Shown here in pieces: positions 22,049 through 49,599 of a DNA stretch of 58,443 nt (within the stretch, counting starts at the first letter, position 1; the number at the start of each line of letters is the position of its first letter). The stretch is from an uncultured archaeon. GTDB lineage: Archaea; Asgardarchaeota; Lokiarchaeia; Sigyniarchaeales; SOKP01. The stretch spans positions 1 through 58,443 of the forward strand of contig CAZWEM010000024.1 in the NCBI GenBank assembly GCA_964632315.1, written 5' to 3'. Below the pieces are notes generated by a model, which ran no database searches, had not been told where the DNA came from, and was given only the letters and a program-made list of their open reading frames with translations. A program made the position numbers and the translations under genes.

Positions 22049-22870
22049 TTAAATTGCAACATAAAGTCGACCATTGGTTTCTTTGCTTACCGAATGATCT
22101 CCACTATATTCCGCAAATTTACCGCTTAATTTTTCTCCATTCGGAAGTAATACTTCATTTACTTCGCCCATCTTTTTATATGAAGGGAGTATTCTACTCA
22201 CTTTGCCTTTAATAACAATAGTTCCTCGAGATTGATCCGCTCCAGCACAACGATCTACATCCCCTTCCACAACAATCGTTCCACCATGATTGTGTATTCC
22301 TAAGAATGAGTCAGCGCTTCCACAATATAAAGTAGGCCACTTATTTGAAGGTTTCGAACTTTTTGCCCATAACATTGATTCAATACCAACTCTCCCCTTT
22401 ACTCTAATTATTCCATTTTTCATTCCCTGCCAATAACCACGATATGCAGATCCAACGTAATGACCTGCATCTCCATTAATCTCTAATTCTCCTCCCTCTA
22501 ACATGGCACCTGCCCAATCATCAGCATTTCCGTTTACTATGATCTTTCCACTCTTCATATGATTACCAACATGCATGCCGACGTTTGAGTTTATCTCTAT
22601 CTCTCCTCCATTCATCATTTCTCCGATTCTTTTCACTTTAGAGAGATTTCCATCGATTACAATCTTAAGGTTTTTAGGATCATCATCAGATTTACCAGAA
22701 ACGGAAAAAAAGTCTCCAATACTCAGTAACTCTTTACTATGATAGATCGGAAGCTTTTTTATGTCTGCTAATGTCTTACCAGCAAAATTATTTGGAGTGA
22801 TGCTTTCTGCTTCTAATGGAAATTCTGGTTGCTTCTTTAACTTTAATTTTATCTCTGCCATTTTACTCAC
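22049..22870 (-). CDS. fwdC: formylmethanofuran dehydrogenase subunit C
   Basis: KRIGEMM.GG, repeated GxxMxxG, VGSAYRG.W.GM. Confidence 0.93.
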   Translation of the reverse strand: MSKMAEIKLKLKKQPEFPLEAESITPNNFAGKTLADIKKLPIYHSKELLSIGDFFSVSGKSDDDPKNLKIVIDGNLSKVKRIGEMMNGGEIEINSNVGMHVGNHMKSGKIIVNGNADDWAGAMLEGGELEINGDAGHYVGSAYRGYWQGMKNGIIRVKGRVGIESMLWAKSSKPSNKWPTLYCGSADSFLGIHNHGGTIVVEGDVDRCAGADQSRGTIVIKGKVSRILPSYKKMGEVNEVLLPNGEKLSGKFAEYSGDHSVSKETNGRLYVAI

Positions 22871-24215
22871 CCAATTTCTCCTTTACTTTTTCGAGTAAAC
22901 GCTCTAAAATATCATGATCTGAGAGGCATTCTCCCGGAGCATCCTTTACTTTGCGTAATCTTAAAGGTACCTTGTCCATCCTGTAAGCAGTTCCCTCACA
23001 TTCAATACCTGCAAATGCTGGTGGTAAAATGATATCCGCATATGCAGAAGTGGGAGTTTCGTGAGGTTCGATGACGATTAAAGGATGCTTAAATAAATTT
23101 TTAACTGCAGGTGCTGGAAAATTGCTTGCTGGATCTGATGCTACGATTAGTGCAGCATCTACCTCATTTTTCATTAATAAATCGACTGAAGAGAATTCAC
23201 CAGGATTATATCGTGGATAACCTTTGGAGAAATCAATGGAGTACCCAAAACCCGTATTCCACGTAAAAACTTGGTTTGCTCCGGCCACATTATAGTGCCC
23301 TCTCATGGGGCATAATAGAAATTTTGTATGATCATTCAATTCCCTCACGAGACAGATTGCAGCATCAACATTCCTGTGATGAGCAAGTGATTGTGTTAAT
23401 CCCATACCAAAAAATATGACTCCATAGTTACATGATTTTAATTTTTCTGCTAATTTTACAATATCTTCTTTTTTAACGCCTGAAATTTCCTTTTCATCAA
23501 GATCCACCTCACGCAATGTAGCCCTAATTGCATTTACTAATTCATAATCTTCATTAGGATTTACAGGAATATACAAATCAGCAATTTGAGCTGTATTCGT
23601 GTTTCGAGGATCCACTACTATTATATACCTGTCATTTCTTCCATCTTTCCTGAAATATCCTCGAACAAATTGGCTATAACGACCTAAATGTCGAGGGTGG
23701 GCATGAACAGGATTGCATCCCCAAAAAACAACTAAATCAGCCCTATTTTTATATTCTCCAAGGGTTGATAATGGAGCACCGACATCTTGGATGGCCAATA
23801 GAGATGGCCCATGACAGACTGAAGCGGTATTATCCAGAATCGAACCAAGAATTTCAGCAAGTTCGACTCCTTTTCCCTGTGCTTCACATTCGGTACTAGA
23901 AAAACCATATAATAACGGTCTTTTTGCTTTTACTAAGATGTCTGCAGCTTTATCCAAGGCTTCATCCCATGAGACTTCCTTGAATTCTCCTTTTACTCTT
24001 ATTCTTGGTTTTTCAAATCGATGCTTGCTTGGGTTTGATGAAAACATTTTTTTCGTACCAATTTGGCAAGCATTGCGTACTTCAACAATCTTATTATCAG
24101 ATACATCTATTTCGAGGTCGTCACATAGAGTTACGTTTAAAATCCGTTGGGGATTTTAATTTCCGCAAAATGGACAACACACGTCATAGACTGTCTTTAT
24201 TTTTCTTTCAACCAT
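22863..24215 (-). CDS. fwdB: formylmethanofuran dehydrogenase subunit B, interrupted by a 30-nt stop-containing insert (24132-24161); 440 aa if the insert is removed
   Basis: ATG at 24215 behind GGAGG gives MVERKIKTVYDVCCPFCG-[insert]-TLCDDLEI...NACQIG, in frame with track ORF 22863..24047 (SVCHGPS, WGCNPVHAHPRH, MRGHYNV, GTAYRMD). Confidence 0.9.
24131..24161 (-). other. 30-nt hairpin insert in fwdB (candidate BHB/BHL-type intron or recoding element)
   Basis: mRNA sense AATTAAAATCCCCAACGGATTTTAAACGTA; perfect inverted repeat TTAAAATCC/GGATTTTAA; in-frame TAA at 24158-24156. Confidence 0.7.
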
Positions 24216-24217
24216 TT

Positions 24218-24613
24218 TTATGCCTCCTTTAACATTCCTATTAACTCGATTGCACCAAGGACCTTTCCGTCTTTAACTACTTCTACTTTTGCTTTCATTC
24301 CCTTATAAGTGGGGGTACCACAAGATTGTGAGTCTGGATTTACTACTTGGTTTGCCCAAGGACCCATTGGGATGAAAATTATTCCTGGGTGAGGGCCCTC
24401 TTCCGAAATTGTAGAATAAACCATTACTTCACCATAATCAGTAATAACTTTTACTGGAGTCCCCGGTAAGCAATCTAGTTTTTTAAAATCATCTCTATCA
24501 AATGCACATATAGCTGCGGCACGAACATTTTCCATCGTAGCTTTTCCTCCCTCTAATGCGACACCTTGATTTATGGTACGTCCAGTTAATAGGATTAAAT
24601 TATTTAAACTCAT
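24218..24613 (-). CDS. fwdD: formylmethanofuran dehydrogenase subunit D
   Basis: LTGRTINQG, V.TDYGE, IFIPMGPWAN.V, GTPTYKG. Confidence 0.93.
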   Translation of the reverse strand: MSLNNLILLTGRTINQGVALEGGKATMENVRAAAICAFDRDDFKKLDCLPGTPVKVITDYGEVMVYSTISEEGPHPGIIFIPMGPWANQVVNPDSQSCGTPTYKGMKAKVEVVKDGKVLGAIELIGMLKEA

Positions 24614-48981: not shown

Positions 48982-49599
48982 TTAAAACTCAAAATCTGCC
49001 CCAATTTCAAGAAATTTTGCATCAATTTCCTGTTCATTCAGAAATTTAACTAATTTCTTTCCCATTTCTTCCTGTCCTGGGTCAAAATGATAAGGAAAAA
49101 CGATTTTTGGATAGATTTCATTCAAAAATTTGAGATAATCTCCATAAAACTCTTCGAAACTAGCAATAAAGCAATAATCAACTTGACTTACCAAATTCAT
49201 AAGACTTTTTGAAAAAACCGCTGAGTCTGCCGTGTGAAGTAATGTGATGTCTCCCTTTTTTATTAAATACGCAAAACAATTCTCAGTTTTGTAGCATTTA
49301 ATTTTATATGGCGTAATGGAAAGATCTTCTAATTCTATTACTTCTTCGTCTTTTACAACCTTTATCTCTAATTTTTCTCTCATAATTTTTGGCGCATAAA
49401 TCTTCAGCTTTTCTGCAGCGTATTTGTTTCTTATCTCAGAGATTTTTTCCATATTTGCGTGATCAGAATGTTCATGAGTGAGAAAAATAGTTTTGATCCC
49501 ATTTTCTGGAGAGACAAAATAATTGGGGTCTATGATTATATGATCGTTAATATCAATAAGTTCAATACAAGATCTTCCTAAAAACCTAATTTTCGTCAT
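48982..49599 (-). CDS. metallo-beta-lactamase-fold hydrolase
   Basis: IIDP, THEHSDH, HTADS, PYH. Confidence 0.85.
   Translation of the reverse strand: MTKIRFLGRSCIELIDINDHIIIDPNYFVSPENGIKTIFLTHEHSDHANMEKISEIRNKYAAEKLKIYAPKIMREKLEIKVVKDEEVIELEDLSITPYKIKCYKTENCFAYLIKKGDITLLHTADSAVFSKSLMNLVSQVDYCFIASFEEFYGDYLKFLNEIYPKIVFPYHFDPGQEEMGKKLVKFLNEQEIDAKFLEIGADFEF

What the first reader, a model, noticed from the sequence alone, without database searches (positions are those of the whole stretch)
24129..24215. Candidate mRNA intron or recoding element: a 30-nt stop-containing hairpin splits the Fe-S motif of fwdB
Seen: the minus strand from ATG 24215 (GGAGG RBS, 2 nt after the fwdD stop) reads MVERKIKTVYDVCCPFCG-N*NPQRILNV-TLCDDLEI...NAC and stays in frame with the rest of FwdB. 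Removing exactly 30 nt restores CPFCGTLCDD, the canonical FwdB/FmdB N-terminal [4Fe-4S] motif, and gives 440 aa. The insert holds an in-frame TAA and a perfect 9-bp stem (TTAAAATCC-ccaac-GGATTTTAA). The RNA can be drawn as GCGG[AAA]-stem-loop-ACGU[AAC], a 4-bp central helix (G.U, C-G, G-C, one G.A mismatch) with 3-nt bulges. An imperfect outer exon-exon pairing GUCCAU/AUG(U)GAC closes it. Cutting after the second nt of each bulge excises 24160-24131 and yields GGA-ACU-CUA in frame. Known: archaeal tRNA-splicing endonuclease cuts BHB and relaxed BHL motifs in this way, and the crenarchaeal cbf5 intron is the classic protein-gene example. Inference: an EndA/RtcB-spliced mRNA intron in a core CO2-reduction gene of an Asgard-like archaeon. 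The rest of the gene and operon look intact, which argues against decay. Alternatives are ribosomal bypassing (AAU-stop-hairpin-AAC), a mini mobile-element footprint, or recent inactivation.
Basis: partly seen in the sequence, partly recalled or inferred. Interest (0 to 1): 0.93.

Follow-up and report, generated by a model that had tools for sequence, protein, structure and literature searches.

The report
tRNA-type mini-intron splitting Asgard fwdB
The gene for a core CO2-fixing enzyme subunit (FwdB) of this Loki-type Asgard archaeon is interrupted by a 30-base hairpin that has the shape cut by the tRNA-splicing enzyme. Seventeen natural variants at two neighbouring sites, plus one insert at a third site, indicate a real intron that must be removed from the mRNA, which papers I could search confirm for only one archaeal protein gene (cbf5).

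Summary
On the minus strand, fwdB starts at ATG 24215 and a 30-nt insert (24160-24131) splits the N-terminal Cys motif. The insert carries an in-frame TAA and a perfect 9-bp hairpin. Removing it gives CPFCGTLCDD and a 440-aa protein.

The intron reading is supported by comparison, not by RNA data.
- About 90% of orthologues in related Promethearchaeota lack any insert.
- The rest carry 29-31-nt inserts at three sites: site B (as here, 8 variants), site A (7 nt upstream, 10 variants) and site C (codon ~134, 1 case).
- Every insert obeys one geometry: 1 nt, hairpin, 4 nt, 2 nt. Cutting after the second base of each 3-nt bulge restores the frame exactly.
- The helices are kept by compensatory changes (95-99% of cells paired, against 48% or less when slid).
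- Most inserts are 29 nt, so read-through cannot rescue them.
- Carrier genes stay under strong purifying selection (dN/dS 0.03-0.11).
- The genome has two EndA genes and RtcB. Its uS8 and TBP genes are split by inserts of the same design.

No RNA read covered the junction, so splicing is inferred. This copy's helix is relaxed (one G.A mismatch). The scan noted the same kind of mini-intron before, in other genes of this genome and in other Asgard genomes.

The parts
24161..24215 (-). fwdB exon 1 (ATG 24215; 18 codons plus 1 nt, ending ...TGC GGA A)
   Evidence: orthologue N-termini
24131..24160 (-). 30-nt mini-intron (ATTAAAATCC CCAAC GGATTTTAA ACGT AA); in-frame TAA at 24158-24156
   Evidence: It is absent from about 90% of orthologues. 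The same intron with one loop change is in L282-L285.
22863..24130 (-). fwdB exon 2 (C TCT ATG... read as ACT CTA TGT after joining; molybdopterin oxidoreductase domain; stop at 22865-22863)
   Evidence: PF00384, E 4.9e-25
24137..24159 (-). inner helix of the intron: perfect 9-bp stem with 5-nt loop
   Evidence: Five of its 9 pairs show changes on both sides among 7 site-B variants.
24163..24166 (-). central-helix 5' strand GCGG (exon 1), followed by the 5' bulge AAA at 24162-24160; cut after 24161
   Evidence: The Cys17 codon is TGC in all six carriers tabulated (the same TGC is visible in the carrier sequences), against 12 of 102 intron-less rows.
24133..24136 (-). central-helix 3' strand ACGU (intron), followed by the 3' bulge AAC at 24132-24130; cut after 24131
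   Evidence: Three pairs are invariant. The fourth is G.A here, G.U in 3 variants and G-C in 3 variants.
24170..24175 (-). outer exon-exon helix, 5' strand GUCCAU
   Evidence: 100% of cells paired in 7 variants, nearly invariant
24120..24126 (-). outer exon-exon helix, 3' strand AUG(U)GAC
24218..24613 (-). fwdD (molybdopterin dinucleotide-binding domain), directly upstream in the operon
22049..22870 (-). fwdC-like gene (weak GXGXG match, below Pfam's cut-off), overlapping the fwdB stop; the operon continues

Best explanation
The 30 nt at 24160-24131 are a tRNA-type (relaxed bulge-helix-bulge) mini-intron in the fwdB pre-mRNA. The transcript folds so that exon GCGG pairs with intron ACGU. This short helix is flanked by two 3-nt bulges (AAA, AAC), a 9-bp intron hairpin and an exon-exon outer helix. 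The archaeal splicing endonuclease EndA, with two subunit genes here, cuts after the second base of each bulge. RtcB then joins the exons to give ...UGC GGA|ACU CUA..., and the mRNA encodes a 440-aa FwdB with an intact CPFCGTLCDD [4Fe-4S] motif. Shown here: the insert, its geometry, its homologues, covariation, selection on the gene, and the presence of the enzymes. Inferred: the cleavage and ligation themselves, and which enzymes carry them out. The intron belongs to a polymorphic set found at three sites in fwdB of related Promethearchaeota. It is gained and lost often and looks like a tolerated or selfish element, not a conserved regulator.
For: 1. Homology fixes the boundaries. Uninterrupted orthologues read CPFCGT[LF]CDD, and removing 24160-24131 restores this.
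2. Nineteen distinct inserts share one geometry (1 nt + hairpin + 4 nt + 2 nt), so the BHB rule 'cut between bulge bases 2 and 3' (PMC2738675) gives the exact exon junction. They are 8 at site B, 10 at site A and 1 at site C.
3. The minimum-energy fold of the site-A intron of L202 is a textbook hBHBh': 3-nt bulges, 4-bp helix, and cuts at the homology-defined borders.
4. Covariation is clear. At site B, 95.3% of cells are paired against 48% or less when slid, with 5 pairs changed on both sides. At site A, 98.6% are paired against 45% or less, and the central and outer helices are 100% paired.
5. The 29-nt and 31-nt versions shift the frame, yet the genes stay intact.
6. Selection is purifying. 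dN/dS is 0.03-0.11 between carriers and their nearest intron-less kin, the same as between intron-less pairs. For G000 it is 0.036 against L271 and 0.042 against L282.
7. The intron and its exon flanks are far more conserved than synonymous sites. G000 and L282 differ by 1 change in 30 nt, and 21 + 26 flanking nt are identical, while 29% of third positions differ (P = 5e-4).
8. Synonymous exon changes cluster at the splice site and fall on the paired bases.
9. The machinery is present: two EndA genes and RtcB. Asgard EndA is reported as the broad-specificity (alpha-beta)2 type (PMC5829648).
10. In this genome the single-copy uS8 gene and the only two-repeat TBP gene are split by 29-nt and 30-nt inserts of the same design. 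Removing them restores YIGE|FE and IQNIVASGDL.
Against: No RNA evidence exists for this junction. The only RNA contig laid covers 23052-23235. This copy's central helix has one G.A mismatch, and the minimum-energy fold prefers a 5-bp helix with 4-nt and 1-nt loops. Three U.U oppositions separate the central helix from the outer helix. Relaxed BHB shapes around hairpins are as common as their mirror images in this genome, so structure alone proves nothing. G000 has a 35%-identical fwdB paralogue, so this fwdB need not be essential. The conservation of the intron and its flanks could reflect recent transfer instead of constraint.
Confidence: 0.85

Rival explanations
1. Recent inactivation: the insert is a disabling indel and fwdB here is a young pseudogene, tolerated because a paralogue exists.
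For: There is an in-frame TAA and no RNA proof of removal. A 35%-identical paralogue lies at C19:43043-44299. The closest relatives (98.4% and 96% amino-acid identity) lack the insert.
Against: The same insert sits in a relative whose gene has diverged by dS 0.65, with dN/dS 0.042 and no other lesion. Eighteen further inserts at three sites all obey the splice geometry and keep their helices by compensatory change. Carrier genes are as constrained as intron-less ones. Single-copy uS8 and the only two-repeat TBP gene carry the same kind of insert.
Confidence: 0.05
2. The insert is removed from the RNA by a mechanism other than EndA/RtcB, such as another endonuclease-ligase pair.
For: Enzyme identity was not tested. 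This copy's BHB is relaxed.
Against: The cut sites fall exactly where the EndA rule predicts in all 19 variants, and site A is a canonical substrate. EndA and RtcB are present. I know of no other archaeal system that excises 30-nt hairpins.
Confidence: 0.05
3. Translational recoding: the ribosome bypasses the hairpin (T4 gene 60-like hop, AAU to AAC) or reads through the TAA.
For: A stop lies next to a stable hairpin. AAU...AAC in G000 and AUU...AUC in G053 could serve as take-off and landing pairs.
Against: The hop would give CPFCG-NV-TLCDD and break the conserved CxxCxxxC spacing. L267 (AAA, no landing codon) has no usable pair. At site A, landing on UUU leads into a wrong frame with a stop (sequences). 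Read-through cannot rescue the 29-nt and 31-nt versions. What is conserved is the BHB geometry, not codon pairs.
Confidence: 0.02
4. The insert is a footprint or copy of a tiny DNA mobile element (MITE-like palindrome), or an assembly artefact.
For: It is a palindromic insert with a patchy distribution among close relatives.
Against: The hairpin is single-copy in the 4.45-Mb genome, and the nearest matches have 2 mismatches and differ in sequence. There is no target-site duplication beyond AA. The insert is present on 8 contigs, and the 4 places shown come from 4 other samples plus a contig of run X6. The stems differ between variants while pairing is kept.
Confidence: 0.03

Closest known systems
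BHB intron in the cbf5 (aCBF5 pseudouridine synthase) pre-mRNA of Desulfurococcales and Sulfolobales (Watanabe 2002; Yoshinari 2006; Yokobori 2009, PMC2738675)
   Same: It is a short intron with no ORF inside a protein-coding sequence. Its BHB is often relaxed, and cuts between bulge bases 2 and 3 restore the frame. The host has a hetero-oligomeric EndA. The intron has been gained and lost among relatives.
   Different: The gene (fwdB) and the phylum (Promethearchaeota, Asgard) differ. There are three alternative sites in one gene, and presence or absence varies even between alleles 98% identical in protein. cbf5 splicing was shown with cDNA and enzyme assays; here splicing is inferred.
Non-canonical tRNA introns of archaea, including the intron-rich tRNA genes of Asgard archaea (PMC5829648; PMC11291895; bioRxiv 10.64898/2026.10.13.758758)
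   Same: The motif and presumed enzymes are the same, the size range is similar, and gains are frequent. Asgard EndA is reported as (alpha-beta)2 with the L1 loop that gives broad specificity.
   Different: The substrate is an mRNA, and the exons must keep coding while also pairing. Neither Asgard paper's searched passages report an intron in a protein-coding mRNA.
Ire1/RtcB splicing of HAC1/XBP1 mRNA in eukaryotes (my own knowledge; RtcB and HAC1 are cited in the reference list of PMC5829648)
   Same: It is non-spliceosomal. An endonuclease cuts at two stem-loops, a tRNA ligase joins the exons, and removal changes the reading frame.
   Different: The endonuclease and its recognition motif differ, and that splicing is a regulated stress response. 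Nothing here suggests regulation.
Programmed translational bypassing (phage T4 gene 60)
   Same: A stop codon lies next to a hairpin inside an otherwise intact ORF.
   Different: No conserved take-off and landing pair gives the conserved protein. The feature is conserved as RNA pairing with fixed cut geometry.

Membership tests
Archaeal BHB intron (EndA-cleaved, RtcB-ligated) | Two 3-nt bulges separated by a 4-bp helix, flanked by helices (canonical hBHBh'; PMC5829648) | tested here: inconclusive
   In G000 the motif can be drawn with 3-nt bulges, but the central helix is 3 bp plus a G.A mismatch. The minimum-energy fold differs, and the outer helix is set off by three U.U oppositions. This is a relaxed form. 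Six of the 7 aligned site-B variants have all 4 pairs. Across the 10 site-A introns the central and outer helices are fully paired, and the two that were folded give the canonical central helix and 3' bulge.
Archaeal BHB intron (EndA-cleaved, RtcB-ligated) | Cleavage between the 2nd and 3rd base of each bulge yields the functional exon junction (PMC2738675) | tested here: met
   The predicted cuts at 24161|24160 and 24131|24130 remove 30 nt and restore CPFCGTLCDD. The same rule works for all 19 variants at 3 sites.
Archaeal BHB intron (EndA-cleaved, RtcB-ligated) | The structure is maintained in evolution by compensatory changes | tested here: met
   95-99% of cells are paired against 48% or less when slid, and 3-5 pairs show changes on both sides. 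The exonic helices are nearly invariant and so say little.
Archaeal BHB intron (EndA-cleaved, RtcB-ligated) | The host encodes the splicing endonuclease (broad-specificity type for relaxed motifs) and RtcB ligase | tested here: met
   There are two PF01974 genes (C28:34842-35066 and C8:41146-41400) and one RtcB (C26:2315-3622), all over the cut-off. I did not check the L1 loop or the catalytic residues.
Archaeal BHB intron (EndA-cleaved, RtcB-ligated) | Spliced RNA and excised (circular) intron are observed | tested here: inconclusive
   The one RNA run laid holds a contig at 23052-23235 only, and nothing covers 24100-24200.
Archaeal BHB intron (EndA-cleaved, RtcB-ligated) | The host gene remains functional (purifying selection despite the insert) | tested here: met
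   dN/dS is 0.036, 0.042 and 0.03-0.11 for other carriers.
Programmed ribosomal bypassing | A matched take-off and landing codon pair whose use gives the conserved protein | tested here: not met
   By reading the sequences: G000 and G053 have possible pairs, but these add 2 residues inside CxxCxxxC. L267 has no pair, and the site-A pair lands out of frame.
MITE-like DNA element | Multiple related copies in the genome, terminal inverted repeats and a target-site duplication | tested here: not met
   There is one exact copy, and the three 2-mismatch hits have different stems. No duplication exists beyond AA.
Group I / group II self-splicing intron | A catalytic RNA core of hundreds of nucleotides | tested here: not met
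   The insert is 30 nt.

The most novel reading that the evidence does not exclude
The fwdB mini-introns are a mobile population. They spread between alleles and species of Promethearchaeota by a homing-like gene conversion that drags about 20-25 nt of flanking exon with them, or by reverse splicing. They can also shift between sites 7 nt apart. This would make the lineage a natural system in which short, endonuclease-spliced introns are actively invading protein-coding genes in the closest prokaryotic relatives of eukaryotes. What the data allow: at least 7 (site A) and 4 (site B) gains or losses on a tree of 77 ingroup proteins. One well-supported clade of 11 mixes site-A and site-B carriers. 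Near-identical introns plus flanks sit in host genes that differ by dS 0.65. Synonymous differences cluster at the site in the two closest carrier/non-carrier pairs. Selection on RNA pairing alone could explain the same patterns.
Probability: 0.35. Interest if true: 0.9.

Novelty: new member of a known kind. Interest (0 to 1): 0.8.

Why it matters
In the papers I could search, splicing of an archaeal coding sequence by the tRNA endonuclease is confirmed only for cbf5. The two Asgard papers I checked describe intron-rich tRNA genes but no intron in a protein-coding mRNA. fwdB adds a metabolic gene in the archaeal group closest to eukaryotes.

Gene callers currently truncate it. Public records list 394-435-aa 'FwdB' proteins that start inside or after the intron. 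Metabolic reconstructions may therefore misjudge this Wood-Ljungdahl step.

This gene is unusually informative because it is polymorphic. Intron-bearing and intron-less alleles 98% identical in protein, three sites and 19 sequence variants exist in nature. That makes intron gain, loss and the constraints on exon sequence directly testable. Together with the split uS8 and TBP genes of this genome, it indicates that mRNA splicing is routine in this lineage.

Tried and rejected
- **My own genome-wide BHB scan.** Relaxed BHB shapes are as frequent as their mirror images, and ORF-joining filters mostly pick ordinary gene boundaries. The scan gives no intron count. It did recover the TBP insert.
- **In-window candidate at 48983-49011.** It proved to be a normal stop / RBS / ATG gap between two genes.
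- **Loop motif.** A shared NNATC loop motif was not convincingly enriched.
- **RNA evidence.** Run X20 covers only 23052-23235 of fwdB, and the DNA runs are low-depth fragments. Among what was laid there was no joint and no insert-less allele. This says nothing either way about splicing.
- **ARAGORN.** With introns allowed it found 30 tRNAs, 19 of them 'with introns', but several calls are implausible (introns over 1 kb). I did not use them.
- **Stop-codon read-through, bypassing, MITE footprint, pseudogene and assembly artefact.** I considered each and rejected it, as set out under the rival explanations.

Full report
**1. The observation**

On the minus strand the fwdD ORF ends with TAA at 24220-24218. 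GGAGG lies at 24227-24223 and an ATG at 24215. From that ATG the frame reads MVERKIKTVYDVCCPFCG N*NPQRILNV TLCDDLEI... and then runs open to 22863. The part after the insert is a molybdopterin oxidoreductase domain (PF00384, E 4.9e-25). It is flanked by fwdD, a polyferredoxin, an MvhD/FlpD protein, an fwdC-like gene and fdhD.

The insert holds a perfect 9-bp stem with a 5-nt loop at 24159-24137. The 86-nt region folds at -24.3 kcal/mol with z = -4.25. Deleting 24160-24131 gives a 1323-nt CDS of 440 aa.

**2. How much the structure alone is worth**

The exact hairpin occurs once in the 4.45-Mb genome. I scanned the whole genome for 'hairpin + 4-nt helix (at least 3 of 4 pairs) + 3-nt bulges'. 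There were about 50,000 hits, and the same number for the mirror-image topology. A relaxed BHB around a hairpin is therefore not evidence by itself in this AT-rich genome.

In G000 the central helix is G.U, C-G, G-C plus a G.A mismatch. The minimum-energy fold prefers UUGCG/CGUAA, with a 4-nt loop on the 5' strand opposite a single unpaired base, and a further 4-nt loop before the outer helix. The case rests on comparison.

**3. Relatives**

Record titles of close relatives name Promethearchaeota/Promethearchaeia, including Loki_b31 and Loki_b32. In the genus (41 other species) and in 75 fwdB loci of species-representative genomes, most orthologues read CPFCGT[LF]CDD without interruption. Among the 120 best protein clusters, 15 lack the N-terminal motif, and 12 of these start inside or right at the end of a read-through insert.

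Fetching the DNA gave 19 distinct inserts.
- **Site B** (after ...TGCGGAA, as in the window): G000, L282, G053 and L280 with 30 nt; G052, L260, L267 and L281 with 29 nt.
- **Site A** (after ...CCGTTT, 7 nt upstream): G017, L202 and L272-L279, all 29 nt.
- **Site C** (between HGPSLLAE and QDVG): L256, 31 nt.

Every one is built as 1 nt + hairpin + 4 nt + 2 nt. The 4 nt pair with the 4 exon bases that lie 2 nt upstream of the 5' border. This is exactly the geometry in which EndA cuts between the second and third base of two 3-nt bulges separated by 4 bp (definition in PMC5829648; cut rule in PMC2738675). The borders were fixed independently by alignment to intron-less genes.

For L202 the minimum-energy fold is a textbook hBHBh' whose cuts give CCGUUU|UGCGGG. 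For G017 the central helix CCGU/GCGG and the 3-nt 3' bulge are also predicted.

**4. Covariation**

For 7 distinct site-B sequences, 95.3% of cells pair in the proposed structure, against 48% or less when the partners are slid by 1-3 columns. Five of the nine inner-stem pairs change on both sides. The fourth central pair is G-C (3), G.U (3) or G.A (G000 only) (five-sequence version).

For 10 site-A sequences, 98.6% of cells pair against 45% or less. The central and outer helices are 100% paired, and three pairs have double changes. The exonic strands hardly vary, so they neither support nor oppose the model. The counts rest on few, related sequences.

**5. The gene is alive**

The 29-nt and 31-nt inserts shift the frame, so read-through cannot rescue them, yet every carrier gene is otherwise intact. 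dN/dS between carriers and their nearest intron-less relatives is 0.03-0.11. Two intron-less pairs give 0.04 and 0.10.

G000's closest relatives were found in the protein collection.
- P0125 (98.4% identical, 440 aa) and P0001/L271 (96%, same operon on an 11.7-kb contig) lack the intron.
- P0121/L282 (94%) carries the G000 intron with one substitution in the loop. It is on 8 contigs, and the 4 places shown come from 4 samples, both JGI and Logan.

dN/dS for G000 is 0.036 against L271 (dS 0.66) and 0.042 against L282 (dS 0.65).

**6. Constraint or transfer around the site**

Between G000 and L282, 29% of third codon positions differ. The intron has 1 change in 30 nt (P = 5e-4 at the third-position rate), and the exons are identical for 21 nt upstream and 26 nt downstream.

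In the two closest carrier/non-carrier pairs, synonymous differences pile up within 24 nt either side of the site. The counts are 10 of 49 against 7% elsewhere (p = 0.002) and 11 of 49 against 3.8% (p = 2e-6). These differences fall on the paired bases. The Cys17 codon is TGC in all six carriers tabulated, against 12 of 102 intron-less rows. All four site-B carriers tabulated read TGT CCA TTT TGC GGA ... GAC GAC; two later variants differ by one synonymous base each (TTC in L267; GAT in L281).

Either the exons are selected to form the BHB, or the introns move together with short exon tracts. Both readings fit a working intron, and neither fits decay.

**7. Distribution**

On a tree of 83 FwdB proteins, site A needs at least 7 changes and site B at least 4. 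G000 is sister to the intron-less L271. One well-supported clade of 11 has 7 site-A carriers, 2 site-B carriers and 2 intron-less members (smaller tree). Turnover is high. Sites A and B never occur together in the sequences seen.

**8. Machinery and genomic context**

G000 has two EndA-family genes on different contigs and one RtcB. Asgard archaea are reported to have the (alpha-beta)2 enzyme with the L1 loop that confers broad specificity (PMC5829648).

Following leads from earlier notes of this scan, I checked two other genes myself.
- **uS8.** The only uS8 gene (two Pfam pieces on C35) is split by a 29-nt insert of the same build. Removing it joins YAYIGE to FERYDDG.
- **TBP.** The only two-repeat TBP gene (C18) is split by a 30-nt insert that my own scan had flagged. 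Removing it gives one 220-aa open frame (stop to stop) with IQNIVASGDL at the junction.

A cell cannot live without uS8. This organism must therefore remove such inserts from RNA.

**9. Rivals**

- **Pseudogene:** contradicted by sections 5-7.
- **Bypassing:** it is not frame-limited, so I checked codon pairs. G000 (AAU/AAC) and G053 (AUU/AUC) have candidate pairs, but these would add two residues inside CxxCxxxC. L267 has none, and at site A a hop to UUU lands in a dead frame (sequences).
- **MITE or artefact:** contradicted and by independent assemblies.
- **A different RNA-level mechanism:** it cannot be excluded, but there is no positive evidence for it.

**10. What is known**

The searchable literature gives cbf5 as the only confirmed archaeal pre-mRNA intron; others were merely predicted (PMC2738675; searches). 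The Asgard papers I checked describe intron-rich tRNA genes and, in the passages searched, no intron in a protein-coding mRNA.

The fwdB intron is thus a new member of the cbf5 kind, in a new phylum and gene. The same kind of mini-intron was already noted by this scan in other genes of this genome and in other Asgard genomes. One of those notes claims an RNA contig lacking a gyrB intron, which I could not check.

**11. Verdict**

Confidence is 0.85 that this is an endonuclease-spliced mRNA mini-intron. What is missing is direct RNA or enzymatic evidence.

Noticed in passing
L256:940-972 (JAGXOA010000054.1, Promethearchaeota bin106): There is a third intron site in fwdB. A 31-nt insert with a 10-bp stem lies between HGPSLLAE and QDVG (codon ~134). 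It has the same 1 + hairpin + 4 + 2 build and is absent from all other orthologues seen.
   Followed up: partly
G000:C18:19083-19112 (genome contig, not in the window): The only two-repeat TBP gene is split by a 30-nt hairpin insert (loop ATATC). Removal gives one 220-aa open frame (stop to stop) and restores IQNIVASGDL at the start of repeat 2.
   Followed up: partly
G000:C35:14222-14622 (genome contig, not in the window): The only uS8 (rps8) gene is split by a frame-shifting 29-nt hairpin insert (GGCGAA|A TCTAATAGA TCTT TCTATTAGA CGCA AT|T). Removal joins YAYIGE to FERYDDG.
   Followed up: partly
protein clusters P0011, P0021, P0026, P0034, P0047, P0050, P0076-P0078, P0090, P0098, P0103, P0121, P0133: Public gene calls for intron-bearing fwdB are truncated to 394-435 aa. 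They start at codons inside or after the intron, for example MIINHLIVTLCDD and MESYRLIAVCGTLCDD. The Fe-S motif is therefore missing from the deposited proteins.
   Followed up: yes
FwdB tree, clade of L202, L211, L260, L266, L272-L277, L281: Site-A and site-B introns, 7 nt apart, are intermixed among close relatives in one well-supported clade and never co-occur. This could be intron sliding or repeated replacement.
   Followed up: partly
G000:C19:43043-44299: A second FwdB/FmdB-like paralogue (35% identity, 439-aa open frame) is present in G000 and in 24 of the 41 other genomes searched. The organism has two formylmethanofuran dehydrogenase B subunits.
   Followed up: no
G000:C28:34842-35066 and G000:C8:41146-41400: Two separate EndA-family genes (open frames of 208 and 212 aa) are consistent with a heteromeric (alpha-beta)2 splicing endonuclease. 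I did not examine the catalytic residues or the L1 loop.
   Followed up: no
window 48983-49011: A BHB-like hairpin flagged by my scan is only the stop / RBS / ATG gap between two ordinary minus-strand genes. It is a false positive and shows how weak the motif is on its own.
   Followed up: yes
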